From positions 1,032 through 65,031 of the forward strand of contig DATBEI010000059.1 in assembly GCA_036269595.1 (NCBI GenBank): a stretch of 64,000 nucleotides of DNA, written 5' to 3'. The notes below the pieces were generated by a model. That model saw only the letters and a list, made by a program, of their open reading frames with translations. It did no database searches and was not told where the DNA came from. Shown here one piece after another: positions 14,870 to 28,126 of this stretch. This stretch comes from Candidatus Sulfotelmatobacter sp. GTDB taxonomy: Bacteria > Acidobacteriota > Terriglobia > Terriglobales > Acidobacteriaceae. Position 1 is the first letter of the stretch. Each line of letters begins with the position of its first letter. The position numbers were made by a program, and so were the translations under genes.

Positions 14870-15919
14870 TCATCGAAGGGTCTCCAAATACGCGGTCAAC
14901 GCGTCCAGTTGCTGATCGCTCAACTGCATCGCTGGCATCAAGGAACCGGGCTTGATGGCGTCCGGATTTCGAATCCAGAGCCGGAGATTTTGCGGCGTAT
15001 TAGGGGCTGCGCCGGCCGCGATCGTATCTCGGCTCATCAGGTGCGTGAGGTCCGGACCGAATCGCCCGTTGGCCACTGTGCCCGACACAGTGTGGCAGTT
15101 GATGCAGGCGGTCGTCTCGAATGTCCGTTGTCCCTGTGAAACAGCATCATTTACAAACGCCGGCTGGCGTTGCTGCAGAATCCATCGGTTAAACTCATCC
15201 TTCGACTGGACATAAACACGCAGCAGCATCTTGGCGTGCTGGGTTCCGCAATACTGCGCACATTGGCCGAGATAAACTCCTGTCTGCTGCGGGTCAATCC
15301 ACATCATATTGGGGTGATTGGGGATCAGATCTGTCTTACCTCCCAGCCGTGGGACCCAGAAACTGTGGTCAGTATCGGCGGATAGCAAACGAATGAATGT
15401 CGGTGTCGGATGGGCCGGGTCACTTACGGGCAGATGCAGTTCATTTGCCGTTACCACCCCCAGATCTGGATAACGATACTCCCACCAGAATTGGTGGCCG
15501 ATGGCCGTAACTGCGATCGCATTGCCAGGGGGCGATGTTTTCTGAACGAGGGCAATTACTCGTGCTGTCGCCATGAATAATGCGACCACGATGAGAATCG
15601 GGATGACCGTCCACGCCAATTCCACCTGATTGCTGCCGTACACCTGAGGTGGTTCTCGACCGTCGTCATTTCTCTTCTTCCTAAACCTCACGATGGAGTA
15701 AAGCAGCAAGGCGAAGACCACCAGGAAAATGGCTCCTGTGACCGCCAGTACAAACAGAGATAACCCGAAGATCGATTTTGCTGGAGTCGACGCGGGCGCA
15801 AAAATGTTCGTAGGGCTTGAGGGCTGGCTTGGATCTGCGAAAGCTAACGCGGCCCCGCCGAAACACACGAATATCTGAGAACCTAGTACGCGCCCGCTAA
15901 TTGAGTCACGTGATCGCAA
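14870..15919 (-). CDS. ctaC: Cytochrome c oxidase subunit II with fused C-terminal cytochrome c domain (caa3-type)
   Basis: CuA site HSFWVPRLGGK ... CAQYCGTQHAKM and a C-terminal CINCH haem c site. The TTG start at 15919 is tentative. Confidence 0.9.
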   Translation of the reverse strand: MRSRDSISGRVLGSQIFVCFGGAALAFADPSQPSSPTNIFAPASTPAKSIFGLSLFVLAVTGAIFLVVFALLLYSIVRFRKKRNDDGREPPQVYGSNQVELAWTVIPILIVVALFMATARVIALVQKTSPPGNAIAVTAIGHQFWWEYRYPDLGVVTANELHLPVSDPAHPTPTFIRLLSADTDHSFWVPRLGGKTDLIPNHPNMMWIDPQQTGVYLGQCAQYCGTQHAKMLLRVYVQSKDEFNRWILQQRQPAFVNDAVSQGQRTFETTACINCHTVSGTVANGRFGPDLTHLMSRDTIAAGAAPNTPQNLRLWIRNPDAIKPGSLMPAMQLSDQQLDALTAYLETLR

Positions 15920-16621: not shown

Positions 16622-17131
16622 CTATGCTGATTTTCGGGTTCTAGATTCCGACGAGATTGTGCGCTGTTTCTTACCGCGCCCGGAATCTTGGCCTTTCGAC
16701 GTTTCCATATTTTCAACACCCTCTTTAAATTCGGAAACCTCGACAATCTGCCAATTGCCCCCCTCGTTCCACGGGCCCCGGGCATCGGTCTCGCCTTCAT
16801 CGCCTTCTCCGGTCGAATCGTTGAAATACTGATCGACCAGCACGGGAGTCGGTGGAATCTGTCCAATTGAAAAAGGCGCCTTTCCGATACTCTCAAGAGC
16901 AGCGGTGAAAGCCTTCATGTGAGTAATCTCTCGCGTCATCAAAAACTGGAGCGCATCTTTCGATCCGGGATCGTCGCAAAAGTTGATTAAGCGCTCATAC
17001 ACAATCTTGGCGCGAGCCTCGGCGGCTATGTTGCTTCTCAGATCTATATCCAGTTCGCCGGTGATTTTGAGGTAGTCGGCCGTCCATGCGTCGCCCATCG
17101 AGTTGAACAAGCTGACGCCACCCCCACCGCC
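16622..17131 (-). pseudogene. Mn-catalase gene fragment lacking roughly the N-terminal 110-120 codons
   Basis: Encodes the Mn-catalase C-terminal half (DLRSNIAAEARAKIVYERL, FLMTREITHMKAF, RGPWNEGGNWQIV). Similarity continues upstream of the TTG as GGGGGVSLFNSMGDAW and is then cut by a stop at 17132-17134. The first metal-binding helix pair is absent and the next gene starts 36 nt away on the other strand. Confidence 0.65.
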
Positions 17132-17169
17132 TTATACACGCTTAGATGATTCGGAAAAGGAGATGCCAG

Positions 17170-17952
17170 ATGCAGTTCAGAATATTCTCACGTACATTCG
17201 TTACTTCCTTAGCATTCGTCGTCTGTGCATTTCCTTCCCTGGCACAGAATCCGCAGGATTGTTCGAAGATCCCGGACTACAACAAGCTCAAAGCGGCGTT
17301 AACGAGCGCTGTGAAAGAGGGCAAAGGGGCGAACGGGGGACTCGGGAATCAGGAATGGGGCGCGGTGGTGAATCGAGATGGCATCGTTTGCGCCGTTGTG
17401 TTTACGGGCCCGAATCGAGGAGCGGAATGGCCGGGAAGTCGCCTGATCTCCGCGGAAAAGGCGAATACAGCAAATGCTTTCAGCACCGACAATTTTGCTC
17501 TTTCCAGCGGCAACGTTTATTCCGCCGCGCAGCCTGGAAACTCTCTTTACAGCATCGTGAGCGGTCCAAACCCAACTTCTGCGTTTGCCGGTGATCCACA
17601 AAAGTTCGGTCAACCCGATGACCCGCTGGTGGGAAAGCCGGTTGGCGGAGTTATCGTTTTCGGCGGGGGACTAGCCCTGTACAATAAAAATGGAAAAATT
17701 GTCGAGGCTCTGGGAGTGAGTGGAGACACGTCCTGCGCCGACCACGTAATCGCCTGGAATACCCGGCAGGCCTTAGGGCTGAACGCCGTGCCGATGGGGG
17801 TCGCCCCGGGCCCGAGTGACAACCTCATCTTCGATATCCAGAATGGCGTGAGTAGTAGTGGCTTCGGACATCCAGCGTGCAAGGGCGGTAACCCGAGTGA
17901 AGGGATCATTAACAAGTTAAACCAAACCCACCCCACCGGTCCCCACCGCTAA
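17170..17952 (+). CDS. Secreted long-form GlcG/DUF336 (haem-degrading-like) domain protein, paralogue 1
   Basis: AAGGAG lies 8 nt upstream of ATG 17170. Signal peptide present. Blocks NRDGIVCAVVF, GSRLISAEKANTANAFS and GGVIVFGGGLALY...GVSGDTSCADH match the GlcG fold pattern. Confidence 0.7.
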   Translation: MQFRIFSRTFVTSLAFVVCAFPSLAQNPQDCSKIPDYNKLKAALTSAVKEGKGANGGLGNQEWGAVVNRDGIVCAVVFTGPNRGAEWPGSRLISAEKANTANAFSTDNFALSSGNVYSAAQPGNSLYSIVSGPNPTSAFAGDPQKFGQPDDPLVGKPVGGVIVFGGGLALYNKNGKIVEALGVSGDTSCADHVIAWNTRQALGLNAVPMGVAPGPSDNLIFDIQNGVSSSGFGHPACKGGNPSEGIINKLNQTHPTGPHR

Positions 17953-18120: not shown

Positions 18121-18639
18121 TCAATGATCATCTCGGCGAGGAAGAAGGGCCTTGGCAAATTGACGGCGCACAGGCTCCCCAGCGACGGCCATAATAACGA
18201 CCGCAATAGCGATGGCTAGAGCATCAAGCCCCGTCTGCATCGATCCCAGCGACACAAGCATGCTTGTTGACAGAGACGCGGGTTGGCTTGCCTTGAGAGC
18301 CAATGTTATGGCTGTAGTAATAACGACCGCCAGAACGACGGCCCAGAGACGAGATGAGGTAATAAAGCCCGCGGACGCAACTTTGGGGGCATGCCAGGCA
18401 CCGAGCAACCATAGGGAAAGAAAACCTGCACCGAGTCCTGCCATGTGTCCCACAATAATGTTGTAGGTCCTGGCGCTTCGTGCGAGAGGTTGCTCGACCA
18501 TTTCATAAGCGGTAGGACCCAGGCTTGCGAAGATCAGCGGTCTGCGCACAACCAGCGCAATCGCGCCTACAAGCAAAATAAGCGCGCCCTCACCAATAGA
18601 AGCGAATAAAAGATTCTTGCCTCTCGTCATCTCTTTCAC
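18121..18639 (-). CDS. HPP-family-like small membrane protein
   Basis: 172 aa, 4-5 TM helices, ASLGPTAYEM and IVGHMAGLGAG blocks resembling the HPP family. The usual HPPAGA motif reads SQPASLS. Confidence 0.5.
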   Translation of the reverse strand: MKEMTRGKNLLFASIGEGALILLVGAIALVVRRPLIFASLGPTAYEMVEQPLARSARTYNIIVGHMAGLGAGFLSLWLLGAWHAPKVASAGFITSSRLWAVVLAVVITTAITLALKASQPASLSTSMLVSLGSMQTGLDALAIAIAVVIMAVAGEPVRRQFAKALLPRRDDH

Positions 18640-18668
18640 TTGAACCTAAAGAATCGAATCTATCTAGA

Positions 18669-18690
18669 CCTGCCAGAATTCATTGGCAGG
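18669..18690 (-). other. Perfect 7-bp hairpin in the GlcG-like/HPP intergenic gap
   Basis: CCTGCCA (18669-18675) / TGGCAGG (18684-18690) around a GAATTCAT loop. Only a weak T-rich tail follows on the transcribed strand. Confidence 0.3.
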
Positions 18691-18731
18691 GCAGGCGTCT
18701 CGAGCAGGGCTCAACAATCTATTTCTCCGCT

Positions 18732-19529
18732 TCAACGTGCTTTCGGACCGGTGGGGTACTTTTTCGAAAGGTCCTTAACGAGTTCGTCTGGAGGATTGCC
18801 CCCTTTACACGTCGGGTGTCCAAAGCCGCTCGGGCTATTGTTGTTCGACCAGTCGAGAATCATGTTGTCGTTGTGATCTGGAGAGGGCCCCATGGGCACT
18901 GCGTCCAGCCGCAATTCATGGCGGACCTTCCACGCGATGATATGGTCTGCGCACGAAGTGTCACCGCTCAGACCGAGACCGCCGACGATTTTTCCCTTGG
19001 AGTCATAAAGGGGCAAGCCGCCCCCAAAGACGATCACTCCGCCAATCGGCTTTCCGACCATAGGGTCGTCGGGCGTGCCAAATGACGTTGCGAGCCCGAA
19101 CACAGCTTGAGCATTGGGAGGGGCGCTGGTCGTGAGACTGTAAAGACTCTGTCCGGGTTGTGCCGCCGCAAAAAGATTGGCAGTGGACAGCGCATAGTCC
19201 GAGGAACTGAGAGCATTTGCTGTATTGGCTTTTTCGGCGGCGATGGCACGACTGCCAGGCCACTGCTGCCCGCGATCGTTACCGCTGAACACGACTGCGC
19301 AGACAATGCCGTCGCGGTTGACCGTGACGGCCCATTCCTGATTTCCCAATCCGCTGTTGCCTGTCGCGCCTTCCTTGATCACAGACTGAAGTACGCTGCG
19401 CAATTTGGAATGATCGGGGAGTGCCGAGCAATCCGGTTTAGATTGCGCGATTCCCGGCAGAGGTAACAGCAACGCGGAGCAGGCAACTAGAATCGTCCGA
19501 AGTTTATGACAGTTGAGAGAAGTTAACAT
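18732..19529 (-). CDS. Secreted long-form GlcG/DUF336 domain protein, paralogue 2
   Basis: Roughly 60% identical by eye to the 17170-17952 product (NRDGIVCAVVFSG, GSRAIAAEKANTANALS, GGVIVFGGGLPLY, SGDTSCADHIIAW). I trimmed the ORF to ATG 19529, 13 nt after the coxII stop. Confidence 0.7.
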   Translation of the reverse strand: MLTSLNCHKLRTILVACSALLLPLPGIAQSKPDCSALPDHSKLRSVLQSVIKEGATGNSGLGNQEWAVTVNRDGIVCAVVFSGNDRGQQWPGSRAIAAEKANTANALSSSDYALSTANLFAAAQPGQSLYSLTTSAPPNAQAVFGLATSFGTPDDPMVGKPIGGVIVFGGGLPLYDSKGKIVGGLGLSGDTSCADHIIAWKVRHELRLDAVPMGPSPDHNDNMILDWSNNNSPSGFGHPTCKGGNPPDELVKDLSKKYPTGPKAR

Positions 19530-19542
19530 GTTGAACCTTTCT

Positions 19543-20547
19543 TCATCGAAGTTGTCGCAGGTAAGCAACCAGATCCCGCAACTGCTGACCGTTGAACTGC
19601 GTGAGGTTAGGCATCGCGGCCCCCGGTTTAAGGGACTGAGCGTGAGTGACCCAGGCCTCGAGGTATGCATCGTTATTCGGGTATGAGTTGGCCGCAATAT
19701 TGATGCGGCTAGCGATATGAGTCAGGTCGGGCGCCACCCGGCCTCCAGCCAGGGTTCCGCGAACCTGGTGACACATGGAACAGGGTCCGGCCATGAAAGT
19801 CTGCTCGCCGCGTCGAGCCTCCTCGGTGGTTGGTTCTGTGGCGGACTGTCTTTGGCCCTGAACCCACGCATCGTAATCGGAAGATTCTTGCGCAACCACC
19901 ACGAGCCTCATGTGCGCGTGCTGCGCGCCACAGTATTCGGCGCACGTCCCGGTGTAGATTCCTGGCTGGTCAGCTTCGATGCGGATGAAGTTCGGATGGT
20001 CCGGAATCAGATCCACCTTGCCATGCAAGGTCGGGACCCAAAAAGAATGGATGACATCCAGCGAACGCAATTCAATATCGACGGGTTGACCAACGGGGAT
20101 GTGGATTTCGTTTGCCGTAGTAAATCGCTGGGCGGGAGCACCGAGATACTGGACCTCCCACCACCACTGCCGGCCAATAATGGCGATCTCTGGATGCAAG
20201 TCATGATGATGAACATCGTGGACGGGAAAACTGGCCATCAATTTCAATCCAAGAATGAACAGAACACAAAGTACGCTTAGAGGGAAGGCGAGACCTCCCC
20301 ACGCAATCCAGCCTTGGCCGCCTCCCACATCGACCGGTTCGTGTTCTGCGAGGGTGCCCCGTCTGCGAGACATGGCCCAAGTAAGCAAAATCCACATGAC
20401 GATGCTGATCGCGAGAAACAGAATCAGCATCAGCCATGACAGGTGAGCGATCTTGTCGGCCGCTGGACCTTTGGGATAAAGCGTAGACTGAGACCGCTGG
20501 CAGCCCGAGAGTAGTAACAACATCGAAATGGACCAGAGGCGCTTCAT
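19543..20547 (-). CDS. Cytochrome c oxidase subunit II (second set) with fused C-terminal cytochrome c domain
   Basis: Lipobox LLLSGC, CuA site HSFWVPTLHGK ... CAEYCGAQHAHM, C-terminal CSMCH. Trimmed to ATG 20547. Confidence 0.9.
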   Translation of the reverse strand: MKRLWSISMLLLLSGCQRSQSTLYPKGPAADKIAHLSWLMLILFLAISIVMWILLTWAMSRRRGTLAEHEPVDVGGGQGWIAWGGLAFPLSVLCVLFILGLKLMASFPVHDVHHHDLHPEIAIIGRQWWWEVQYLGAPAQRFTTANEIHIPVGQPVDIELRSLDVIHSFWVPTLHGKVDLIPDHPNFIRIEADQPGIYTGTCAEYCGAQHAHMRLVVVAQESSDYDAWVQGQRQSATEPTTEEARRGEQTFMAGPCSMCHQVRGTLAGGRVAPDLTHIASRINIAANSYPNNDAYLEAWVTHAQSLKPGAAMPNLTQFNGQQLRDLVAYLRQLR

Positions 20548-20552
20548 CTTTT

Positions 20553-21074
20553 CTAGTCCTTCTGCGCTGAGTGGCCCGGGTGAGTGATCGCGGGTTGCGC
20601 CACTTCTTCGTGCTCGGGCATTCGCGGAGGTTCCGGTTCCTGCGCCGTCCTCATTGACTTGATGTAGGTAACTAATTTCCAAATTTGATCTTCTGGAATT
20701 TTGCTGCCCCACGAAGGCATTCCATGCCCGCGTCCTGCAGCAATCGAATCGAAGATTTGATCGTCGCGTTCCCCGAAAAGCCAGACTTGGTCACGCAGGC
20801 TGGGGCCCATCCCGCCGCCCGCGTGGCCACCGTGACAACCGGAGCAGTTGTACCAATTGAAAAGTTTTCGTCCTTCCTGCAGAGCAACCGGATCGTTGGC
20901 GAAGGGATTGCTGCGGAACTTGACGTTGCTCCCGGCGCCCGGGATCGGACCTACTGCGGTCGGCACAGGCGCGGGACTGCTCTCAGGGGCGGCAGGTGCC
21001 GAATATTCCTGGCATCCTCCGCCAGCCAGTAATAGCGACAATACAATCCCCGCAATAAGATCTTGTACTTGCAT
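20553..21074 (-). CDS. Monohaem c-type cytochrome lipoprotein (XoxG-like position)
   Basis: LLLAGGGC lipobox and an NCSGCHGGHAGGGMGP haem site. The start is ATG 21074 or GTG 21098. Confidence 0.8.
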   Translation of the reverse strand: MQVQDLIAGIVLSLLLAGGGCQEYSAPAAPESSPAPVPTAVGPIPGAGSNVKFRSNPFANDPVALQEGRKLFNWYNCSGCHGGHAGGGMGPSLRDQVWLFGERDDQIFDSIAAGRGHGMPSWGSKIPEDQIWKLVTYIKSMRTAQEPEPPRMPEHEEVAQPAITHPGHSAQKD

Positions 21075-21085
21075 GTTGGAGCACC

Positions 21086-21907
21086 TCATTTTTGGCACTG
21101 CCCCCCCTGAGCGCTCACCAAGGGCACGGAGTACGAGTCGAGCAGGTGCCGAATGTCGGAACGGTGGCGGGCTATGAAACTATTTAGCTTGTCGCGGAGC
21201 GCGTCATTGCCACGCCGCACTCCCATGGAGATATCGAACGAAAGTGGAATCTGCTGATCTAGAGGGGAAGGGCAGACCGGAGTAGCTTCCAAAGGGGCGG
21301 AAGAGCGGTTGGCAAAATAGCCACCCAAGGGTCCCCACACAACCGCAACATCAATTGTCTTGTCAGCAACGGCGCGCACGATATCGCCGGCCGGGTTCTG
21401 TTCCGAAAGCTTGCCAAAGATGTCGTACCCTTCAAGGTTTCCGACAAGACCTCGCTTCAGCAGAGCGGTTGTAGACGGCACACGATCGTCATTCTCTCCG
21501 GTCACATGAACTCCTATGCGGAGACTTTTGAGCTGCGGATCGTCGAAAGAACGAATATGCAGACCTCGATCGCGACGCGACACAAACACGTAGATCGAGC
21601 GGTAATAAGGGACCGTAGTGCTGGCTACGTCAATGCCAGTGGGAACTTCCATCACTACATCGCAAGCGCCCGCGAGTAGAGTGTTGCGAAAGAATTTGTG
21701 GCGCTGAGGGAACCAGAAATACGAAAGGCTCACGCCCAGGTCACGAGCGACCAATTGCGCCAGTTCGTTCTCAAAACCTTGTTGTTGTTGATTCGAGTAA
21801 GGCAGATTGTTGGGGTCGGCACAAACGCGCAGCTCCGCCGTGGCAGCGACCAGCGGTGCAGCACAGCAAAAGAAAAAGGCGAGCAGACTCTTAGTAGCCG
21901 AAGACAT
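21086..21907 (-). CDS. xoxJ: MoxJ/XoxJ-like periplasmic binding protein associated with quinoprotein dehydrogenases
   Basis: ELRVCADPNNLPYSNQQQQGFENELAQLVARDLG matches the N-terminal signature of the quinoprotein-dehydrogenase-associated SBP family. Overlaps the xoxF stop by 17 nt. Confidence 0.8.
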   Translation of the reverse strand: MSSATKSLLAFFFCCAAPLVAATAELRVCADPNNLPYSNQQQQGFENELAQLVARDLGVSLSYFWFPQRHKFFRNTLLAGACDVVMEVPTGIDVASTTVPYYRSIYVFVSRRDRGLHIRSFDDPQLKSLRIGVHVTGENDDRVPSTTALLKRGLVGNLEGYDIFGKLSEQNPAGDIVRAVADKTIDVAVVWGPLGGYFANRSSAPLEATPVCPSPLDQQIPLSFDISMGVRRGNDALRDKLNSFIARHRSDIRHLLDSYSVPLVSAQGGQCQK

Positions 21908-23702
21908 AGAGTGCGCCTCCGGGACTGGTCATCTGTTTAATCTTCTTCATGGCTCCTACCACGCCCAGGGCAGCGTAGTCGTCGTCGGTTGAAACACTGG
22001 GAAGCGCTACCGCTCCCATCCAGCCGCCGATGCCGACATAGATCGCGACGTACTGTTTACCGTCAGGACCGAGAAATGTCATGGGATTGCCGATGATGCC
22101 CGAGCTAAGTTTCATCTGCCACAAAACGTTTCCGCTGCGTGCGTCCAATGCTCGGAAGTAGCCGTCCATCGTCCCGTAAAAGACAACGTCTCCAGCAGTA
22201 GCAAGTACGCCGCTGTAAACAGGCAGGTCGGCCTCTTTGACGCTCCAGACCTTCTTGGCATTTGCGACGTCCCAGGCAATCAACTCGCCCTGGTATCCAC
22301 CGGGACCGGGATACATACGAACACTGGCACCTAGGTAAGGAGTGCCTGCGATGTAATTCACGTCTTCCCCTGAATAATCCATGCACGTGTTGTGCGCAGG
22401 GATATAGAGATAGCCGGTCTTCGGCGAGAAGGACGACGGCACAAACTCTTTACCGCCGGTCGAGGAAGGACAGACCCCTCGGGCGTAGTGATTGGTGTGG
22501 GGACGCTTATCCGGATTCTCGATCGGAAGACCAGTTTTCAGGTCGTAGCCTTTTGCCCACGTAACCGGTTCGAAGTTTTCAGCCGAGAGCACCTCACCGG
22601 TTTCGCGATCGAGCACGAATACGAAGCCGGTGCGACCGGGATGGATGAGCAGTTTTCGAGTCTTGCCTTGCCAAGGCATGTCGACGAGAACGTTCTCCAT
22701 AATCTCGTCGTAGTCCCAGCCATCGTGAGGCTCAATTTGGTAAGCCCATTTCGCGTCACCGGTTTCAGGATTGCGCGCCCAGATAGTAATCGACCATTTG
22801 TTGTCGCCGGGACGCATGTCATCGTTCCAGACGCCGGGATTACCCGTTCCGTAATAGATGAGATTGAGTTCCGGATCGTAGGAAATCCAGCCCCAGATCG
22901 TCCCGCCGCCCAAGCGCCACTGGTCTGGAGTCCACGACGTCACGCCGAGGTCTTTGCCGCGATCTTTCTGATAAAAGGGCTTAAAGTCAGGACCGATGCG
23001 AGCGTCGCTGTCAGGACCACTATTGAAGGCACGCCACAGAATTTTGCCCGACTTAAGATCAAGCGCGGTCAGTTTGCCCCGCACTCCCAACTCTGCGCCA
23101 CTGTCTCCCACTAGAACGACATCCTTGACGACGATGGGAGCCATCGTGATGGTTTCACCTAGGTCGGTATCTCCGACTTTGGTTTTCCACACGAGTTGAC
23201 CGGACTTGGCGTCGACCGCGACCGTATTTGCGTCGAGGGTGTTGTAAATGATTTTTCCATCGGCGTAGCTGGCGCCACGGTTCACCACATCACAACACGC
23301 GATGCCCACTGATCGTTGATCGGGATTCGGTTCGAACTTCCATTTCATCGGATAGCCGGGCTTAGTCAAATCGAGCGCGATCAGGTAATTGGGGAACGGC
23401 GTGACCATATATAAAGTGTTGTCCACAACAAGCGGCCCACCCTCATGGCCGTGGGGGATCCCGTCCGCCATCTCGCCAACTATGTGGAGATTCTTGACGT
23501 TGCCGGTATTGATTTGGGAGAGAGGACTGAAGCGAGTGTTCGCGTAGTCGCCCGCGGGCATTGTCCATTCCCCTGTCGGCAGCGGGCTGACCAGGTGGAT
23601 GCCAGCCTGCGATCCCGGAACTTCAGTCGGACTGGGCGCATTTTGCCCTATCAGCGGGATCACCATACAGAGAATGAAAAGAAAACCGTTAACAATACGC
23701 AT
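21891..23702 (-). CDS. xoxF: PQQ-dependent methanol/ethanol-family dehydrogenase, XoxF-type (lanthanide signature)
   Basis: Signal peptide, vicinal Cys pair (GIACCDVV), SGAELGVRG, WGWISYDPELN, and the WDYDE motif. The DYD codons are gac tac gac at 22707-22715. Confidence 0.9.
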   Translation of the reverse strand: MRIVNGFLFILCMVIPLIGQNAPSPTEVPGSQAGIHLVSPLPTGEWTMPAGDYANTRFSPLSQINTGNVKNLHIVGEMADGIPHGHEGGPLVVDNTLYMVTPFPNYLIALDLTKPGYPMKWKFEPNPDQRSVGIACCDVVNRGASYADGKIIYNTLDANTVAVDAKSGQLVWKTKVGDTDLGETITMAPIVVKDVVLVGDSGAELGVRGKLTALDLKSGKILWRAFNSGPDSDARIGPDFKPFYQKDRGKDLGVTSWTPDQWRLGGGTIWGWISYDPELNLIYYGTGNPGVWNDDMRPGDNKWSITIWARNPETGDAKWAYQIEPHDGWDYDEIMENVLVDMPWQGKTRKLLIHPGRTGFVFVLDRETGEVLSAENFEPVTWAKGYDLKTGLPIENPDKRPHTNHYARGVCPSSTGGKEFVPSSFSPKTGYLYIPAHNTCMDYSGEDVNYIAGTPYLGASVRMYPGPGGYQGELIAWDVANAKKVWSVKEADLPVYSGVLATAGDVVFYGTMDGYFRALDARSGNVLWQMKLSSGIIGNPMTFLGPDGKQYVAIYVGIGGWMGAVALPSVSTDDDYAALGVVGAMKKIKQMTSPGGALYVFGY

Positions 23703-23720
23703 GGCATCGCTCCATCGTGA

Positions 23721-24101
23721 CTAGCGCAGCGTGTATAAATACGCGGCTGCGTCCCTTGCCTGTTTGTTGCTCAAGCCCAACTTCGGCATGGCTGTTCCCG
23801 CTTCCACCGCGGGCGGATTCTCGATCCAATGAATGAGATTGTCGGGAGTATTCGGCAACTCTCCGGCAATCATGGTGCGTCGACTAAAGAAATACAGCGG
23901 CGGTCCGACTACCCCGTTTGCCGCATGAATTCCCGGGATCGTGTGGCACGCGCCGCAACCGTAGGACTCGATTACTTTGCGTCCCTCTCGCGCATCGCCC
24001 CCAGTCGCGACGCTGTAAGGGGACGGCATCCTGCCGCCTGTGCAGGCCGTTAGTAGCAGAACCTGTAAGCCGCAGATGGTCGCCATCAGGCCTGACTTCA
24101 T
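23721..24101 (-). CDS. Small monohaem c-type cytochrome lipoprotein
   Basis: LLLTAC lipobox, CGACH site, distal Met region GTAMPK. 4-nt overlap with the upstream gene. Confidence 0.8.
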   Translation of the reverse strand: MKSGLMATICGLQVLLLTACTGGRMPSPYSVATGGDAREGRKVIESYGCGACHTIPGIHAANGVVGPPLYFFSRRTMIAGELPNTPDNLIHWIENPPAVEAGTAMPKLGLSNKQARDAAAYLYTLR

Positions 24102-24508
24102 CTTGCCCTCACACAGAGATCGATAATGAGCAGGGGCAGACCGAGCCAGATAATCCCAATTCCCAGGGTGGCGCTGATGAAAACGCCTGCCAGCGCCATA
24201 TATTCTTGGCGGCCACGCCCTTCGGCGTTAGAAAGGTCTCTTTCGCGCGAGAGTTCGCGCCAATTGCGAAATGAGATTGCGCCGGCCACTACCGCCGTAA
24301 TCAGGAGAGCAAGAGTAAATATCAAGTAGATGATGCGGAAGCCGGGTTCAATATGGGCCCCGCCGTATTGCTCTTTTCCCAAACATGCCTGCCAAGTAAT
24401 CAGAAGGTCGATAATTCCCAGCGCGATCCACGACGCGGCTGATCCGGCAAAGCCGAACCAGAGACGTCCGGGAGAGATACGTTGGCGGGTGTTGATCTGA
24501 TCGTTCAT
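24098..24508 (-). CDS. Small membrane protein (about 4 TM), possible oxidase accessory/subunit-IV-like
   Basis: 136-aa hydrophobic ORF wedged between subunit III and the cytochrome c gene. No motif recognised. Confidence 0.5.
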   Translation of the reverse strand: MNDQINTRQRISPGRLWFGFAGSAASWIALGIIDLLITWQACLGKEQYGGAHIEPGFRIIYLIFTLALLITAVVAGAISFRNWRELSRERDLSNAEGRGRQEYMALAGVFISATLGIGIIWLGLPLLIIDLCVRAR

Positions 24509-24512
24509 GCTT

Positions 24513-25106
24513 TTAAAAATGCGGTCCTACATAGAGGATCGCGACTACAAAAATCCAGACAACATCGACGAAGTGCCAGTACATCGCAGCGACGTGATAT
24601 GGGCGATAGGGCGATTCGGCGACTGGCGCGTAACGCGGCAGAATCAGCACATAGATCAAAATCAAAAGACCTACGATCACGTGGGCCGCATGAAAACTGG
24701 TGATGGTATAGAAAATCGACCCGTAAGAATCGGTGTACGGGGTTAAGCGCTCCCAATGCTCGCGGTAATCAAATGCCGACAGAGTCAAGAAACCAAGTCC
24801 AATCACGATGGTGAGTGCCAAGGCAATTCGCGCAGATAGATACCTTTCCTTCTTCAGTTGCCGCTCTCCCCAATGCAGCACCAGGCTGCTAACAAGGAGC
24901 ACTGCGAGCATGGGCAGGGCGAAGTGCAACTTCGGCAACTCCTCAATTCTCCATCGATCCTTGTTGCTGCCCAGCATGAAATAACTGACAAATAGCGCGA
25001 GAAAGAGAAACGCCTCCGTCAGAATCGTCAGCATCATCCCGTAGGAGCCGCGCTCGGCTTCCAGTGGAAGAATCAGTCGGCGTGTGGGAACGGCCACCGT
25101 GCTCAT
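24513..25106 (-). CDS. Cytochrome c oxidase subunit III (second set)
   Basis: 197 aa, C-terminal HVAAMYWHFVDVVWIFVV motif. ATGA overlap with subunit I (25103-25106). Confidence 0.9.
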   Translation of the reverse strand: MSTVAVPTRRLILPLEAERGSYGMMLTILTEAFLFLALFVSYFMLGSNKDRWRIEELPKLHFALPMLAVLLVSSLVLHWGERQLKKERYLSARIALALTIVIGLGFLTLSAFDYREHWERLTPYTDSYGSIFYTITSFHAAHVIVGLLILIYVLILPRYAPVAESPYRPYHVAAMYWHFVDVVWIFVVAILYVGPHF

Positions 25107-27010
25107 GCAAATTCTCCCTCTGGTTCAGCCTCGCTCGGTGGAGTCGGTTTCGGCCACAGCCAGTAGTAAGCGGTAAACAAAATGGCCAATACTCCGGCCA
25201 GCGCTACCCACATCCATTGAAAGACAAGTGCGATGAATAACAGCATCAGCGACAACGCGTTGAGTAATGGTGCAATCGTGTCCTCCGGCATCTTCATGAT
25301 CGACTGCGGCTCGGCGTCCAGCCATGAACTGGAAAGGGTCAGCCGGCCCTCATCGAGGACGCGTTCGTTGTTTGGGTCATACTCTTCGTCATGGTCATCC
25401 CAGAGCGGATGGCGCGAGCGGACGGTTGGAATATGGACGGTTGCGTAGGGCGCGGGCGGAGAATCCGTTTCCCATTCCAGTGAATCCGCGTTCCATGGAT
25501 TCTTGCCTGCAATCTTTCCCGTACGGAGGCTTTGAAAGAAGTTAACGATGCTGAGCAAAATACCGGTGCCGAAGATGAATGCGCCGACGGTCGCGGTCAT
25601 ATTCAGCCCATCCAGTCCTAACCCAGCGGGATACGTATAGATGCGGCGCGGCATGCCCCCTAATCCCGCGAGATGCATGGGAAAGAAGGCCAAGTTGAAA
25701 CCCACGAACATGATCCAGAAGCTCCATTTGCCGAGTTGCTCGCTCAACATTCGTCCGGTCATTTTAGGAAGCCAATAATAGAGAGCTGCAAAAACGGGAA
25801 ACACGTTCGCCCCGATCAGCACGTAATGGAGGTGAGCTACCACGAAATAGGTATCGTGCACCTGCCAATCGACCGGAATAATTGCCGTGAAAATTCCGTT
25901 CAGCCCGCCGATCACCAGCAGAGCTATGAATCCCGCCGCGAAGTGCATAGCAGCTGTGGCAACCGGCCGGCCCTTCCAGATGGTAGCAATCCAGCAAAAC
26001 ACTTGTACCGCGCTGAAAATGGAAATGGTCATGCTGCCGGCACTGAAAAAACTCATGGCCATGTCAGTCATTCCAACGGCAAACATGTGGTGAAACCAGA
26101 CCCCAAAACCAACGACACCGGTCAAAACGGTCGAGATGGCGACATAGGGATAGCCCACAATCGGCCGCCGCGAGAACACTGGAATGATCATCGATGCCAT
26201 TCCGGTCGCAGGCAGGAAAATCACATATACCCACGGGTGGCCAAAAAACCAGAACAACTGTTGCCACAGCAACGCGTCCCCACCCCAGCGCGCGTCGAAG
26301 AAGTGAGTGCCCCAGCGCCGGTCCAGTTCGAGGAAGACGCAATCCGCGGTCAATGCAGGCAGTGACATCAGGATCGCGAAGGAGATCGTCAGAGTGCTGT
26401 ATAGGAACAGCGGCATGCGGCTGATCGTCATGCCGGGAGCACGCAGGCGAAAGATGGACACTATGAAATTTATCGCCCCAACAGTTGTTGAGATCGTGAG
26501 GAAAATAAGCGCAAGGGCATAAAAATCCATGCCGTAACCCGGGGAATAGCGAAGATTGGTGTAGGGCACGTAGGCAAACCAGCCACCGTGTGGCGATTGC
26601 CCCATAAAAGCACTGACGTACAACAGGATGCCGGAAAGCAGGAAAGTCCAATAGGAAAATGCGTTCAATCGAGGAAACGCCATGTCCCGTGCGCCGATCA
26701 TCAACGGGATCAAATAATTTGCGAAGCCGGAGAGGATGGGCGAGGCATACCAGAAAATCATGGTCATGCCATGCATCGTGAAAAGCTGGTTGTACGCTTC
26801 GGGCGTTAACCACGACTGATCGGAGCGCGCTAGCTGGATGCGCATGATCAGAGCCTCGACGCCGCCAATGATGAGAAAGATGAAAGCGGTGGCGAGGTAG
26901 CGATGCCCGATTTCCTTGTGGTCGACAGTGGAGAGCCATCCGTAGAGAGTCTTCGGCGTTTCCCAGATTTCTCGCAGCCGCTCCTGAACAGCGGGATTGC
27001 TGACGCTCAT
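25103..27010 (-). CDS. Haem-copper oxidase subunit I (second set), divergent, with a C-terminal 2-TM extension
   Basis: GARDMAFPRLN, FFGHPWVYVIFLP, WFHHMF, VVAHLHYV. Trimmed to ATG 27010 (MSVSNPAVQERL...), giving 635 aa. The extra C-terminal helices are LLNALSLMLLFIALVF and VALAGVLAILFTAYYWL. Confidence 0.9.
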   Translation of the reverse strand: MSVSNPAVQERLREIWETPKTLYGWLSTVDHKEIGHRYLATAFIFLIIGGVEALIMRIQLARSDQSWLTPEAYNQLFTMHGMTMIFWYASPILSGFANYLIPLMIGARDMAFPRLNAFSYWTFLLSGILLYVSAFMGQSPHGGWFAYVPYTNLRYSPGYGMDFYALALIFLTISTTVGAINFIVSIFRLRAPGMTISRMPLFLYSTLTISFAILMSLPALTADCVFLELDRRWGTHFFDARWGGDALLWQQLFWFFGHPWVYVIFLPATGMASMIIPVFSRRPIVGYPYVAISTVLTGVVGFGVWFHHMFAVGMTDMAMSFFSAGSMTISIFSAVQVFCWIATIWKGRPVATAAMHFAAGFIALLVIGGLNGIFTAIIPVDWQVHDTYFVVAHLHYVLIGANVFPVFAALYYWLPKMTGRMLSEQLGKWSFWIMFVGFNLAFFPMHLAGLGGMPRRIYTYPAGLGLDGLNMTATVGAFIFGTGILLSIVNFFQSLRTGKIAGKNPWNADSLEWETDSPPAPYATVHIPTVRSRHPLWDDHDEEYDPNNERVLDEGRLTLSSSWLDAEPQSIMKMPEDTIAPLLNALSLMLLFIALVFQWMWVALAGVLAILFTAYYWLWPKPTPPSEAEPEGEFA

Positions 27011-27487
27011 TGTTCGGTCTCTCGCCTTTCCGTAACAACCAAGCCTTGTCGCGGCAGTTAAGATTATTTGGAACGGAAAAAGGATGCCTTGGATCAGCGG
27101 GCAGCTATTGCTATAGCAAGTCTGATCGGGAGACGGCATTTCCCGTGGCTGGGCCCGGAAATTCTGGCCTGGGATTCGAAGATCTGCATCCAGTGCGCCG
27201 ACTGGCGCAGATATCCGAAGCGACGATCGCCTGTTGGTATCCATTCCATCTCAAAATGGAACAGAAAAAGCAGCGAGACAATACCGTGGCGAGTTCGGCA
27301 GGCGCTTAAAACTGGTCTCTCGCTTTTTGGAGAATGGGCTCGTAGTTTCTATTCTGGAGACGGTCTGGCTCACGCTCCAGAACGAGGTCCGATCGGCTGT
27401 GTCGCGGTTTAATCGAGCGGCGCTCACGCGCGAAGAGGCAGGCGTAGGCTTTGCAGTAAACTCTTTCTGTCTTTCCGGAGGCTCAGT

Positions 27488-28045
27488 TTGACCAGATTCG
27501 CGAGGATATCTCCAGCGCTCAAGAAGCGCGCCAGCCGCATTCGCGTTCTACTGATGGACGTGGACGGCACTATGACAGATGGAAGTGTTACCTTGCTCTC
27601 GCAAATGGATGGAAGCGCGCTTGAGATAAAAACATTTGATGCGCATGACGGTCAGGGGCTTACCTTGGCGCGAACGGCGGGGCTTCGCACTGGATGCATT
27701 ACTGGACGCGAGAGTGCGGCTCTGGCTCGACGGGCCTTAGAAATGAAGATGGAGTTCGTTTATATGAGGCAACCCCTGAAGGTGCCGGCCTACGAAGACA
27801 TCCTCAGAAAGGCGGAAGCTTCCGACTATGAGGTGGCATTCGTGGGAGACGATCTGCCGGACATTCCGTTGATGAAGCGCGCCGGGCTTGCGGTCGCGGT
27901 TGGAGATGCTATGCCAGAGGTAAAAGAAGTCGCGCACTACACCACAAAGGCTCTCGCCGGACACGGAGCAATTCGAGAGGCCGTGGAACTCATTCTACGA
28001 TCCAAAGGCATCTGGGCCGAGATGATCGACAAGGCGCGGGCCTAA
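27488..28045 (+). CDS. kdsC: 3-deoxy-D-manno-octulosonate 8-phosphate phosphatase (HAD-IIIA)
   Basis: LLMDVDGTMTDG, FDAHDGQGL and FVGDDLPDIPLM motifs. ~185 aa, TTG start. Confidence 0.85.
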   Translation: MTRFARISPALKKRASRIRVLLMDVDGTMTDGSVTLLSQMDGSALEIKTFDAHDGQGLTLARTAGLRTGCITGRESAALARRALEMKMEFVYMRQPLKVPAYEDILRKAEASDYEVAFVGDDLPDIPLMKRAGLAVAVGDAMPEVKEVAHYTTKALAGHGAIREAVELILRSKGIWAEMIDKARA

Positions 28046-28126
28046 GGGCTTTTGCAAGTCGTGCTTACCGAAGCGCGCTGAGGCGCGGCCATCGGTCCCA
28101 GGTTCGGGCACGGTTGACGATAGGGA

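What the first reader, a model, noticed from the sequence alone, without database searches (positions are those of the whole stretch)
18121..27010. XoxF-type alcohol dehydrogenase module placed inside a terminal oxidase operon
Ten co-directional minus-strand genes are packed almost without gaps: coxI, coxIII, a 136-aa membrane protein, cyt c, xoxF, xoxJ, cyt c, coxII with a fused cyt c domain, a secreted GlcG-like protein, and an HPP-like protein. Junctions in order are a 4-nt overlap, a 4-nt gap, a 4-nt overlap, an 18-nt gap, a 17-nt overlap, gaps of 11, 5 and 13 nt, and a 92-nt gap before the HPP-like gene. The oxidase subunit II gene is separated from subunits I and III by the whole quinoprotein module, whereas the other oxidase in this window has the usual II-I-III order. 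On paper the operon encodes a complete periplasm-to-oxygen route (PQQ dehydrogenase, then two monohaem cytochromes c, then the CuA/cyt c subunit II, then haem-copper subunit I). That would form a self-contained alcohol-oxidising respiratory branch. I am not aware of this arrangement being described, but I cannot search.
Basis: partly seen in the sequence, partly recalled or inferred. Interest (0 to 1): 0.8.

Follow-up and report, generated by a model that had tools for sequence, protein, structure and literature searches.

The report
Methanol dehydrogenase operon with private oxidase
A soil acidobacterium keeps a lanthanide-type methanol/alcohol dehydrogenase, its cytochromes and a dedicated oxygen-reducing oxidase in one tight operon; this layout is real and widely conserved but already published, and the less expected point is that the oxidase lacks two residues normally thought essential for proton delivery.

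Summary
Gene calls, domains and every stated junction check out at 18121-27010 on the minus strand. The reading as an XoxF -> cytochrome c -> oxidase branch is well supported. In 79 of 80 species genomes carrying a close XoxF, the same order recurs: coxI-coxIII-tm136-cyt c-xoxF-xoxJ-cyt c-coxII-GlcG-like. The overlaps are the same and purifying selection is strong. The HPP gene is not a conserved member.

The arrangement is not new. Keltjens 2014 (as cited by Voutsinos 2024), Degli Esposti 2014 ("COX operon type a-II", long COX1, 5-helix COX3, often with PQQ dehydrogenases) and Voutsinos 2024 (XoxF3 with CoxI/II/III in 12 Acidobacteria) describe it. None tested it experimentally.

The split coxII is one rotation of an 8-gene cycle; other lineages carry the other rotations.

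I found no prior mention of one feature. The linked CoxI keeps all haem/copper ligands and the cross-link tyrosine. However, it has Trp at the D-channel glutamate position (GHPWVY) and Gln/Ala/Thr/Ser/Gly at the K-channel lysine position. No sequence has Lys there in 123 examined. The same oxidase type occurs in cultured Methylocella and Burkholderia.

The parts
25103..27010 (-). coxI, haem-copper oxidase subunit I, 635 aa. W-variant: helix VI reads FFGHPWVY and helix VIII reads SAVQVF. It has a C-terminal two-helix extension like QoxB TM13-14.
   Evidence: PF00115; TIGR02891, 689 bits; alignments to 8HCR_F, 9WCX_I, 6KOC_A.
24513..25106 (-). coxIII, short (197 aa, 5-helix type) subunit III. 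It overlaps coxI by 4 nt.
   Evidence: PF00510 matches profile positions 77-254 of 258.
24098..24508 (-). tm136, a conserved 136-aa protein with three predicted long helices and no known family. It is a candidate extra oxidase subunit, in the position of subunit IV in cyo/qox operons.
   Evidence: no family; 95 homologues, all unnamed; AF2 predicts 3 helices, pLDDT 64; no PDB match; dN/dS about 0.09.
23721..24101 (-). cytc126, a monohaem class I cytochrome c with a lipoprotein-type signal (LLLTAC) and one CGACH motif. It overlaps tm136 by 4 nt and travels with the oxidase genes in all gene orders.
   Evidence: (best hit is the cyt c domain of Thermus caa3 subunit II, 2YEV_B, then c2/c552/mitochondrial c).
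21891..23702 (-). xoxF, a lanthanide-type PQQ methanol/alcohol dehydrogenase, 603 aa.
   Evidence: 4MAE XoxF 636 bits against about 300 bits for PedH/ExaA; Ln ligands E204, N288, D330, D332 correspond to SolV E172, N256, D299, D301; C136-C137 invariant.
21086..21907 (-). xoxJ, a periplasmic binding-protein-like accessory protein. It overlaps xoxF by 17 nt.
   Evidence: TIGR03871, 287 bits, cut-off 212; the -17 nt overlap is the median across 76 loci.
20553..21074 (-). cytcG, a monohaem cytochrome c, XoxG/cytochrome c_L-like, with one CSGCH motif.
   Evidence: TIGR03872 MoxG, 50 bits, below cut-off; c_L/c551i structures 2GC4_D, 1MG2_D, 2C8S, 2D0W at E 1e-10 to 1e-8.
19543..20547 (-). coxII with a fused C-terminal cytochrome c domain, a lipoprotein-type signal and an intact CuA site.
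   Evidence: TIGR02866, 154.5 bits, cut-off 147.7; motif H...CAEYCGAQHAHM; CSMCH.
18732..19529 (-). Secreted GlcG/HbpS/EfgA-family (DUF336) protein, 265 aa, with four invariant cysteines. It is the ninth conserved gene of the cluster.
   Evidence: PF03928; follows coxII in about 59 loci at 67-93% identity; EfgA 6BWS, OrfY 2A2L, PduOC:haem; dN/dS about 0.025.
18121..18639 (-). HPP-family membrane protein. It is co-directional but probably not part of the conserved unit.
   Evidence: PF04982; detected near the cluster in only about 10 of 80 loci and at varying positions; 92-nt gap with a modest hairpin, z -1.26.
27011..27487 (-). Intergenic region upstream of coxI, shared with a divergent HAD-hydrolase gene. 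It is the presumed promoter region of the operon (inferred).
   Evidence: The sigma-70 motif scan found nothing above chance.

Best explanation
Nine genes (coxI to the GlcG-like gene, 18732-27010, minus strand) form one operon of a 'Candidatus Sulfotelmatobacter' genome. The operon encodes a private respiratory branch.

Proposed electron path:
- A periplasmic lanthanide/PQQ dehydrogenase of the XoxF type, helped by XoxJ, oxidises methanol or a similar small alcohol.
- It hands electrons to a c_L-like cytochrome (XoxG-like).
- From there they pass, probably via the lipid-anchored class I cytochrome c encoded with the oxidase genes, to the cytochrome c domain and CuA centre of subunit II.
- They then reach haem a and the haem a3-CuB centre of subunit I, where O2 is reduced.

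This route bypasses the Rieske/cytochrome b complex and the canonical caa3 oxidase encoded 3 kb away.

The oxidase belongs to a distinct A-family lineage with a long subunit I, a 5-helix subunit III and an extra 3-helix protein. This lineage serves as a partner of periplasmic dehydrogenases in many phyla.

The separation of coxII from coxI/III is a circular permutation of an ancestral xoxF-xoxJ-xoxG-coxII-coxI-coxIII-tm136-cyt c cycle, not an insertion.

What is shown: gene content, ligands, conservation, tight coupling of reading frames and selection. What is inferred: co-transcription, the order of electron carriers, the substrate, O2 as acceptor and energy conservation.
For: Domains and ligands.

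Synteny: 58 of 80 species genomes have the identical 9-gene order. Another 21 are consistent but cut by contig ends or lack one small gene. One lacks cox. Carriers include Terriglobales, Bryobacterales, Vicinamibacterales, the cultured Acidobacteria bacterium AB60, Steroidobacter flavus, a Polyangiaceae MAG and a Binatia MAG.

Junctions: medians across loci are -4, -8, -4, +31, -17, +3, +3 and +22 nt.

Selection: dN/dS is 0.02-0.12 for all nine genes.

Independent scan: a search for the coxI motif alone in metagenomes recovers xoxF next to this oxidase type in 29 loci, in three or four different gene orders.

Cultured example: Methylocella tundrae plasmid p1 has coxB-ctaD-cox3-hyp-cyt c convergent with ctaG-cyt c-xoxJ-PQQ dehydrogenase.

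Transcription signals: no promoter- or terminator-like excess inside the block, and no internal gap longer than 18 nt.

Literature: the same linkage is described.

Established knowledge: the classical methanol chain MDH -> cyt c_L -> cyt c_H -> aa3 oxidase has the same component types.
Against: There is no expression or biochemical data for this organism or for any XoxF3-type enzyme with its oxidase.

In Methylocella silvestris, XoxF3 is barely expressed.

The oxidase lacks the D-channel Glu and the K-channel Lys. In canonical A-type enzymes these residues are required for turnover and pumping, so normal activity cannot be assumed.

The XoxG assignment is weak (50 bits against a cut-off of 148).

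The window contains no PQQ-synthesis, lanthanide-uptake or C1-assimilation genes among the ORFs I scanned with Pfam.

This oxidase type also occurs without an adjacent xoxF.
Confidence: 0.7

Rival explanations
1. The electron chain is the same, but the oxidase is a low-coupling or non-electrogenic electron sink. Having lost the Glu gate and the Lys, it does not pump, and it may take its chemical protons from the periplasmic side, as nitric oxide reductases do. Its role would then be fast disposal of electrons from alcohol or formaldehyde oxidation (detoxification, or scavenging at trace concentrations) rather than ATP yield.
For: E286 (R. sphaeroides numbering) is Trp in 123 of 123 sequences. 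K362 is Gln, Ala, Thr, Ser or Gly and never Lys. The variability at that position suggests relaxed constraint. The related Rhizobium enzyme has already lost the Lys but keeps the Glu, which suggests stepwise loss. A canonical caa3 oxidase plus bc complex sits next door for energy conservation.
Against: The D-channel entrance and lower part are strongly conserved: D109 in 120 of 123 (Glu in the other 3), N116 in 123 of 123, and S174-T175-T176 in at least 117 of 123. This argues that cytoplasmic proton uptake is still in use. B- and C-family oxidases work and pump without either residue. Strong purifying selection acts on all subunits, including subunit III.
Confidence: 0.2
2. The haem-copper enzyme in this operon does not reduce O2 but another acceptor, such as NO. 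This would parallel the NOR families that evolved from oxygen reductases.
For: Loss of canonical proton-channel residues is typical of cNOR and qNOR.
Against: The cross-linked tyrosine (Y262) and all three CuB histidines are invariant. Murali et al. 2024 use loss of this tyrosine as the marker of NOR function. CoxI scores above the CtaD equivalog cut-off. No denitrification genes were detected in the immediate flanks examined (17146-17952 and 27488-34896).
Confidence: 0.04
3. The xox and cox genes are merely neighbours. A quinoprotein cassette was inserted into an oxidase operon and has no functional coupling to it.
For: coxII is separated from coxI/III, which could look like an insertion. This oxidase type also exists without xoxF.
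Against: The order is identical in 79 of 80 genomes spanning several phyla. The overlaps are conserved. The same linkage recurs in rotated orders. coxI and xoxF identities fall together across loci.
Confidence: 0.03

Closest known systems
XoxF3 gene clusters of Acidobacteria, Gemmatimonadetes and Verrucomicrobia (Voutsinos et al. 2024, PMC10875860; Keltjens et al. 2014 as cited there)
   Same: XoxF is co-localised with CoxI, CoxII, CoxIII, cytochrome c, XoxG, XoxJ and a small (about 110-130 aa) hypothetical protein after CoxIII. It occurs in the same phylum and is likewise untested experimentally.
   Different: The window cluster has no CtaG or NRAMP gene inside it; Caa3_CtaG sits in the other oxidase cluster at 7946-8911. 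The papers do not comment on gene-order rotation, on the GlcG-like gene, or on the proton-channel residues of the oxidase. I could not place the window XoxF in clade 3 against labelled reference sequences.
'COX operon type a-II' of Alpha- and Betaproteobacteria (Degli Esposti et al. 2014, PMC4013037; renamed 'A1, subtype a' in PMC6431628)
   Same: It has a long COX1 with a C-terminal extension, a 5-helix COX3 and small unrecognised proteins among the COX genes, and it often includes PQQ dehydrogenases related to MxaF. Plasmid-borne examples that I inspected in Methylocella, Burkholderia and Rhizobium match this type.
   Different: The proteobacterial versions keep the II-I-III order. That literature files the type under A1, but the window enzyme and the Methylocella and Burkholderia ones lack the A1-defining glutamate. 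The authors read the extension as a COX4/CtaF fusion. Here it aligns with TM13-14 of the quinol oxidase QoxB.
Classical methanol oxidation chain of Methylobacterium/Paracoccus: MDH -> cytochrome c_L -> cytochrome c_H -> aa3 oxidase (established knowledge, recalled from memory)
   Same: The component types and the presumed order of electron transfer are the same. cytcG resembles c_L and cytc126 resembles small class I c-type donors to oxidases.
   Different: Here the metal is a lanthanide rather than Ca, there is no MxaI small subunit, and all components, including a dedicated non-canonical oxidase, are in one operon.
rus operon of Acidithiobacillus ferrooxidans (cyc2-cyc1-orf-coxBACD-rus; recalled from memory, not checked here)
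   Same: The principle is the same: a substrate-oxidising periplasmic or outer module and its own aa3-type oxidase are encoded in one transcription unit.
   Different: The substrate is Fe(II), the carriers include rusticyanin, and there is no quinoprotein.
A2-, B- and C-type haem-copper oxidases (Sousa et al. 2011, PMC3084760)
   Same: They function without the helix VI glutamate (A2, B, C) and without the K-channel lysine (B, C).
   Different: The window CoxI is A-family by sequence. It lacks the A2 'YSHPxV' motif. It keeps the A-type D-channel entrance residues that B and C types lack.

Membership tests
XoxF-type (lanthanide-dependent) PQQ methanol/alcohol dehydrogenase | Membership of the PQQ methanol/ethanol dehydrogenase family, and closer to methanol dehydrogenases than to ethanol dehydrogenases | tested here: met
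   TIGR03075 scores 627.6 bits (cut-off 480). PDB hits: XoxF 4MAE 636 bits, XoxF 6OC5 573, MxaF about 500-544, PedH/ExaA about 294-308.
XoxF-type (lanthanide-dependent) PQQ methanol/alcohol dehydrogenase | The extra lanthanide-coordinating Asp two residues after the catalytic Asp (D301 in M. fumariolicum XoxF), plus E172, N256 and D299 | tested here: met
   The alignment to 4MAE (numbering verified on its sequence) gives window E204, N288, D330, D332. All four are invariant in alignment A1.
XoxF-type (lanthanide-dependent) PQQ methanol/alcohol dehydrogenase | Vicinal disulfide Cys-Cys at the active site | tested here: met
   C136-C137 (GIACCDVVNRG) is invariant.
XoxF-type (lanthanide-dependent) PQQ methanol/alcohol dehydrogenase | Placement in clade XoxF3 against labelled reference sequences | not tested
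   No labelled XoxF3 sequence could be obtained; the supplement holds names only. The assignment rests on Voutsinos 2024 stating that all cox-linked acidobacterial XoxF are XoxF3.
XoxF-type (lanthanide-dependent) PQQ methanol/alcohol dehydrogenase | Lanthanide-dependent methanol oxidation activity | not testable with these tools
   Needs purified enzyme.
A-family haem-copper cytochrome c oxidase (aa3/caa3 type) | Six conserved histidines (haem a, haem a3, CuB) and the cross-linked tyrosine in subunit I | tested here: met
   H80, H258, Y262, H307, H308, H393 and H395 are invariant in 123 sequences. TIGR02891 scores 689 bits, cut-off 670.75.
A-family haem-copper cytochrome c oxidase (aa3/caa3 type) | CuA site in subunit II (H, CxExCxxxHxxM), which marks a cytochrome c oxidase rather than a quinol oxidase | tested here: met
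   DVIHSFWVP ... CAEYCGAQHAHM, followed by a CSMCH cytochrome c domain.
A-family haem-copper cytochrome c oxidase (aa3/caa3 type) | D-channel terminal glutamate (A1: xGHPEV) or the Tyr-Ser substitute (A2: YSHPxV) | tested here: not met
   The window has FFGHPWVY. Trp occupies this position in 123 of 123 sequences, including 74 genome loci that were not selected on the motif. Alignment to solved CtaD and QoxB confirms the position.
A-family haem-copper cytochrome c oxidase (aa3/caa3 type) | K-channel lysine (K354 in P. denitrificans, K362 in R. sphaeroides) | tested here: not met
   Gln336 in the window. Across 123 sequences: Q 81, A 28, T 5, S 5, G 4, K 0.
A-family haem-copper cytochrome c oxidase (aa3/caa3 type) | D-channel entrance residues (Asp124, Asn131, Asn113, Ser193 in P. 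denitrificans numbering) | tested here: met
   D109 (D 120, E 3), N116 (123 of 123), N74 (N 72, D 42), and S174-T175-T176 conserved.
COX operon type a-II (Degli Esposti 2014) | COX1 with a C-terminal extension, 5-helix COX3, and a PQQ dehydrogenase in the cluster | tested here: met
   CoxI is 635 aa and residues 570-612 align with QoxB TM13-14. CoxIII is 197 aa and matches COX3 profile positions 77-254. xoxF lies inside the cluster.
COX operon type a-II (Degli Esposti 2014) | Subunit order II-I-III | tested here: not met
   The window order is I-III-...-II. Rotated relatives with II-I-III exist.
XoxG / cytochrome c_L | Equivalog-level similarity to MoxG/XoxG | tested here: inconclusive
   TIGR03872 scores 50 bits against a cut-off of 147.8. 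c_L structures match at E 1e-10 to 1e-8, but CcoP domains score higher. Its position next to xoxJ supports the role.
XoxJ/MoxJ-like periplasmic binding protein | Score above the NCBIfam cut-off | tested here: met
   TIGR03871 scores 287.1 bits, cut-off 212.15.
Haem-copper nitric oxide reductases (cNOR, qNOR, eNOR, sNOR and others) | Loss of the active-site cross-linked tyrosine | tested here: not met
   Y262 is invariant. The criterion comes from PMC11214002.
Oxidase subunit IV (CyoD/QoxD/CtaF), considered for tm136 | Sequence or fold similarity to a known subunit IV | tested here: inconclusive
   No Pfam or NCBIfam hit. The profile search against PDB gives E > 0.4. The AF2 model has pLDDT 64 and Foldseek gives E > 0.5. 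Only position and the three predicted helices agree.
DUF336 / GlcG / HbpS / EfgA family | Pfam PF03928 above cut-off and the DUF336 fold | tested here: met
   PF03928 scores 42.3 bits, cut-off 25. Foldseek top hits are 2A2L OrfY, 6BWS EfgA, 5CX7 PduOC:haem and 3FPV HbpS, but on a low-confidence model with pLDDT 56.

The most novel reading that the evidence does not exclude
The oxidase in these operons may represent an unrecognised subtype of A-family haem-copper oxidase. It is abundant in soil metagenomes and is also present in cultured Methylocella and Burkholderia.

It has lost both residues that textbooks treat as indispensable for proton delivery. The D-channel glutamate is Trp in every sequence examined, and the K-channel lysine is Gln, Ala, Thr, Ser or Gly. 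Yet it keeps every redox ligand, the cross-link tyrosine and the D-channel entrance, and it is under strong purifying selection.

It would be a specialised private oxidase for periplasmic dehydrogenases such as XoxF. The Burkholderia plasmid, where it sits beside GMC/FAD dehydrogenase genes and their cytochrome c, suggests it may serve that class too. It would either use a new proton route or work as a deliberately uncoupled electron sink.

The conserved secreted EfgA/GlcG-family protein in the same operon could be a periplasmic formaldehyde- or haem-handling partner.
Probability: 0.4. Interest if true: 0.7.

Novelty: already known. Interest (0 to 1): 0.42.

Why it matters
As a gene arrangement, this is a confirmed and very widespread instance of a published pattern, so it adds little on its own.

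It matters in two ways. First, the survey here shows how conserved the pattern is. The identical 9-gene operon occurs in 58 of 80 species genomes. The other gene orders are rotations of the same cycle. Cultured carriers exist, so an experimentally untouched respiratory branch of abundant soil bacteria is directly testable. That branch bears on atmospheric and plant-derived methanol consumption and on lanthanide use in Acidobacteriota.

Second, the associated oxidase is a natural experiment for a long-running question in bioenergetics: which residues are really needed for proton delivery and pumping in A-type oxidases. It naturally carries Glu-to-Trp and Lys-to-Gln replacements that inactivate laboratory enzymes.

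Tried and rejected
1. Internal promoters or terminators. The motif scan gave counts at chance level (5 against 5.7 expected; 14 against 12.1 expected). All terminator-like hits lie inside coding sequence.

2. Terminator in the 92-nt gap before HPP. There is only a modest hairpin without a proper U-tract, z -1.26, so this is left open.

3. tm136 as subunit IV. A profile search against PDB, an AF2 model (pLDDT 64) and Foldseek gave nothing. This is inconclusive, not rejected.

4. A relocated proton-shuttling residue on helix II (Tyr88/Ser90, WYASP) replacing the glutamate. Rejected, because canonical mycobacterial CtaD has the equivalent FYATP.

5. The oxidase as a nitric oxide reductase. Rejected on the invariant tyrosine.

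6. Exclusive linkage of the W-variant oxidase to xoxF. Rejected. L098 and L171 lack xoxF within informative flanks on both sides. L090, L095 and L170 lack it downstream but have short upstream flanks. Across these loci the neighbours are Caa3_CtaG, dihaem-size cytochromes c, a GMC oxidoreductase (L170) or a TPP enzyme (L171). The Burkholderia plasmid shows the same kind of context.

7. Direct placement in clade XoxF3. No labelled sequences were available. Keltjens 2014 is not held in the library.

8. A better model of the GlcG-like protein. The AF2 model has pLDDT 56, and only family-level fold matches were obtained.

9. Literature search for the motif. No paper in the library contains GHPWVY or HPWVY, and none combines xoxF with D- or K-channel terms. 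This does not prove absence from subscription journals.

Full report
**1. Observation**

The ORF list shows ten co-directional minus-strand genes between 18121 and 27010.

| Gene | Coordinates |
|---|---|
| coxI | 25103-27010 |
| coxIII | 24513-25106 |
| 136-aa protein (tm136) | 24098-24508 |
| cytochrome c (cytc126) | 23721-24101 |
| xoxF | 21891-23702 |
| xoxJ | 21086-21907 |
| cytochrome c (cytcG) | 20553-21074 |
| coxII | 19543-20547 |
| GlcG-like | 18732-19529 |
| HPP | 18121-18639 |

From these coordinates the junctions are -4, +4, -4, +18, -17, +11, +5, +13 and +92 nt, exactly as reported.

Pfam and NCBIfam confirm every assignment:
- CtaD (TIGR02891): 689 bits.
- COX3 short form.
- No family for the 136-aa protein.
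- Two monohaem cytochromes c.
- PQQ methanol/ethanol dehydrogenase (TIGR03075): 628 bits.
- MoxJ_2 (TIGR03871): 287 bits.
- CoxB (TIGR02866): 154 bits, with a fused cytochrome c domain and an intact CuA motif (CAEYCGAQHAHM).
- An HbpS/GlcG-like protein and an HPP protein.

The XoxF protein is 100% identical to an NCBI protein of a 'Candidatus Sulfotelmatobacter sp.' MAG on a contig of 77,643 bp. The organism is therefore an acidobacterium of the Terriglobales.

**2. Is the dehydrogenase XoxF-type?**

Yes.
- Against solved structures it scores 636 bits with Methylacidiphilum XoxF (4MAE) and 573 bits with M. extorquens XoxF. It scores about 500-544 bits with MxaF enzymes and only about 300 bits with PedH/ExaA ethanol dehydrogenases.
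- I verified the residue numbering on the 4MAE sequence. The four lanthanide ligands E172, N256, D299 and D301 then correspond to window E204, N288, D330 and D332.
- These four residues and the vicinal C136-C137 pair are invariant among relatives.
- No small-subunit (mxaI) gene is present.
- Clade 3 membership could not be tested against labelled sequences. It is taken from the literature.

**3. Does the bracketing recur?**

A scan of one genome per species with an XoxF alignment returned 80 loci with 67-91% XoxF identity. I ran tblastn with the ten window proteins against these loci.
- 58 loci have the identical order coxI-coxIII-tm136-cytc126-xoxF-xoxJ-cytcG-coxII-GlcG-like.
- 21 more are consistent but are cut by contig ends or lack one small gene or the GlcG-like gene.
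- One (L078) has xoxF-xoxJ-GlcG-like without cox.

The carriers span several lineages:
- Acidobacterial orders: Terriglobales, Bryobacterales, Vicinamibacterales and other Acidobacteriota.
- Cultured isolates: Acidobacteria bacterium AB60 and Steroidobacter flavus.
- MAGs labelled Polyangiaceae and Binatia.

Median junctions across loci are -4, -8, -4, +31, -17, +3, +3 and +22 nt. The frame overlaps are therefore conserved as well.

dN/dS between the window and three relatives is 0.02-0.12 for all nine genes. dS is saturated, so these are rough values. None of the genes is a pseudogene, and tm136 and the GlcG-like gene are real genes.

The HPP gene appears near the cluster in only about ten loci and at different positions. 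It follows the only sizeable gap, which holds a weak hairpin. I therefore treat the conserved unit as nine genes.

Promoter- and terminator-like motifs inside the block are at chance level.

One caveat applies. These 80 loci were chosen by XoxF similarity, so the 79 of 80 figure describes this XoxF subclade only.

**4. Prior descriptions**

- Voutsinos et al. [quoted passage not shown] They also state that Keltjens et al. 2014 had already noted cox and ctaG genes in xoxF3 operons.
- Degli Esposti et al. 2014 (PMC4013037) independently defined 'COX operon type a-II'. It has a long COX1 (read by them as a COX1-COX4 fusion) and a 5-helix COX3. [quoted passage not shown]
- The window oxidase has exactly these features. 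The arrangement is therefore published, although I found no experimental study of it.
- The available expression data concern XoxF3 alone. It is nearly silent in Methylocella silvestris and cerium-induced in Methylosinus trichosporium OB3b.

**5. Why is coxII separated?**

I scanned metagenome contigs for the DNA encoding the subunit I motif FGHPWVY, independently of xoxF.

Where flanks allow, xoxF lies next to the oxidase in 29 loci, in the following orders:
- Window order: coxI-coxIII-tm136-cytc126-xoxF-xoxJ-cytcG-coxII.
- Second order: xoxF-xoxJ-cytcG-coxII-coxI-coxIII-tm136-cytc126.
- Third order: coxII-coxI-coxIII-(tm136)-(cytc126)-xoxF-..., with the xox genes sometimes as xoxF-cytcG-xoxJ.
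- A divergent layout.

The first two orders are exact circular permutations of one 8-gene cycle, and the third nearly so. The cytcG-to-coxII adjacency is kept in the first two.

The 'split' oxidase is thus a rotation, such as tandem duplication followed by loss would give. It is not a quinoprotein cassette dropped into an oxidase operon.

cytc126 always travels with coxIII-tm136, and cytcG travels with xoxF/xoxJ. This suggests an oxidase module (II, I, III, tm136, cyt c) and a dehydrogenase module (F, J, G).

**6. The oxidase is not canonical**

The neighbouring oxidase at 12551-15919 has VFGHPEVY and PTGIKIFNW, the canonical A1 signatures. It sits in a cluster with a dihaem cytochrome c, a Rieske protein, cytochrome b and Caa3_CtaG. 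That cluster is a bc-complex plus caa3 supercluster.

The xox-linked CoxI is 45% identical to it but reads FFGHPWVY and FSAVQVFCW. Alignments to solved CtaD (8HCR, 9WCX) and QoxB (6KOC) place Trp260 at the D-channel glutamate and Gln336 at the K-channel lysine.

In an alignment of 123 such subunits:
- The glutamate position is Trp in all. This includes 74 of 77 genome loci that were not selected on the motif; the other three are truncated.
- The lysine position is Q 81, A 28, T 5, S 5, G 4 and never K.
- The haem and copper histidines, Tyr262 and the two arginines near the haem propionates are invariant or nearly so.
- The D-channel entrance is strongly conserved: D109, N116, N74 and S174-T175-T176.

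The enzyme is therefore neither A1 (xGHPEV) nor A2 (YSHPxV) by the definitions in Sousa et al. 2011. By the tyrosine criterion of Murali et al. 2024 it is not a nitric oxide reductase.

Degli Esposti et al. 2019 file type a-II under A1. No paper in the library contains the motif or combines xoxF with D- or K-channel terms. As far as I can see, this feature has not been remarked on.

**7. The oxidase type beyond Acidobacteria**

A protein search of plasmids found long CoxI relatives at about 56% identity in cultured bacteria.
- **Methylocella tundrae T4 plasmid p1.** It carries coxB-ctaD-cox3-hypothetical-cytochrome c, convergent with ctaG-cytochrome c-xoxJ-PQQ dehydrogenase. Its CoxI has GHPWVY and Ala at the lysine position. 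Its dehydrogenase is 56% identical to the window XoxF and has the D-Y-D motif.
- **Burkholderia sp. THE68 plasmid p2.** It carries the same oxidase module (FAHPWVY, Ala at the lysine position). This module lies next to a GMC oxidoreductase, a gluconate-dehydrogenase subunit 3 and a 424-aa cytochrome c.
- **Metagenome loci without xoxF.** They show similar contexts.
- **A more distant Rhizobium enzyme (48% identity).** It lies next to an FdhF/YdeP oxidoreductase. It keeps GHPEVY but already has Gln at the lysine position. The lysine was therefore probably lost first.

The lineage looks like a general partner of periplasm-facing dehydrogenases that reduce c-type cytochromes. This last point is inference.

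**8. Accessory proteins**

- **cytcG.** It matches cytochrome c_L/c551i structures at E 1e-10 to 1e-8. It is below the MoxG cut-off, so its XoxG role rests mainly on position.
- **cytc126.** It is a class I cytochrome with a lipoprotein-type signal. It is closest to the cytochrome c domain of Thermus caa3 subunit II and to c2/c552. This is the kind of carrier that feeds oxidases.
- **tm136.** It has 95 unnamed homologues and three predicted long helices. It shows no detectable relation to any solved protein. Its position after coxIII mirrors cyoD/qoxD.
- **CoxI extension.** The C-terminal extension aligns with QoxB TM13-14.
- **GlcG-like protein.** It is as conserved as XoxF, at 67-93% identity and dN/dS about 0.025. 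It has four invariant cysteines and belongs to DUF336. Its closest structures are OrfY, the formaldehyde sensor EfgA of M. extorquens, PduOC:haem and HbpS (the model confidence is low). A 58%-identical paralogue lies convergently at 17146-17952. A role in periplasmic formaldehyde or haem handling is a lead only.

**9. Verdict**

- The mechanistic reading as a dedicated XoxF-to-oxygen branch is well supported by comparative evidence but remains untested experimentally.
- The novelty claim fails, because the arrangement is in the literature.
- The residual interest lies in three things: the non-canonical proton-channel residues of the linked oxidase, the rotation series of gene orders, and the availability of cultured carriers for a decisive test.

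Noticed in passing
window 17146-17952 (+): A second secreted GlcG/HbpS-like (DUF336) gene of 268 aa. It is 58% identical to the one in the operon and lies convergent to the HPP gene.
   Followed up: partly
window 7946-15919 (-): A canonical respiratory supercluster: coxII(+cyt c)-coxI(GHPEVY, Lys present)-coxIII-297-aa unknown-dihaem cytochrome c-Rieske-cytochrome b(+cyt c)-Caa3_CtaG. This is a bc-complex plus caa3 oxidase in one run. The only CtaG assembly factor in the window is here, not in the xox-linked cluster.
   Followed up: partly
window 16622-17110 (-): An ORF of 162 aa matches only positions 121-247 of the 284-position Mn-catalase profile. It may be a truncated gene or a mis-set start, since overlapping ORFs on both strands exist here.
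   Followed up: no
window 92-5742 (+) and 28127-34896 (-): Two RND efflux systems (AcrB-like, HlyD-like, and OEP in the first) and two MacB-type FtsX permeases flank the respiratory region. No PQQ-synthesis, TonB-receptor or NRAMP genes were detected among the ORFs of 1-51404 scanned with Pfam. ORFs of 51567-64000 and the ORFs of 150 aa or more in 1-51404 that I judged to be alternative-frame overlaps were not scanned.
   Followed up: no
window 35331-48787: A starch/glucan utilisation block: 4-alpha-glucanotransferase, alpha-amylase, a 1482-aa protein and a 478-aa protein with glucoamylase domains, and an ABC transporter ATPase.
   Followed up: no
L025 3901-7500; L103: Tandem duplication of xoxF inside the otherwise identical cluster, with copies at 76% and 67% (L025) and 67% and 72% (L103) identity to the window XoxF. 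L137 shows tandem coxII-coxI pairs. Such duplications fit the proposed route to rotated gene orders.
   Followed up: no
L202 (Burkholderia sp. THE68 plasmid p2) and L203 (Rhizobium sp. N324 plasmid b): The same long-CoxI oxidase module sits beside non-quinoprotein dehydrogenases. In Burkholderia these are a GMC oxidoreductase, a gluconate-DH subunit 3 and a 424-aa cytochrome c. In Rhizobium it is an FdhF/YdeP molybdoenzyme plus cytochrome c. The Rhizobium CoxI keeps the Glu but has Gln at the Lys position.
   Followed up: partly
protein P0216: A 444-aa gene call on a 2.5-kb metagenome contig joins a GlcG-like domain (89% identical to the window protein) to a COX3 domain. It is either a real fusion or a read-through call. 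If real, it would tie the GlcG-like protein physically to the oxidase.
   Followed up: no
L006, L043, L072 upstream of coxI; L027, L041, L057: Some relatives carry an extra cytc126-like cytochrome gene, or the HPP gene, immediately upstream of coxI. This shows that the cluster edges are variable.
   Followed up: no
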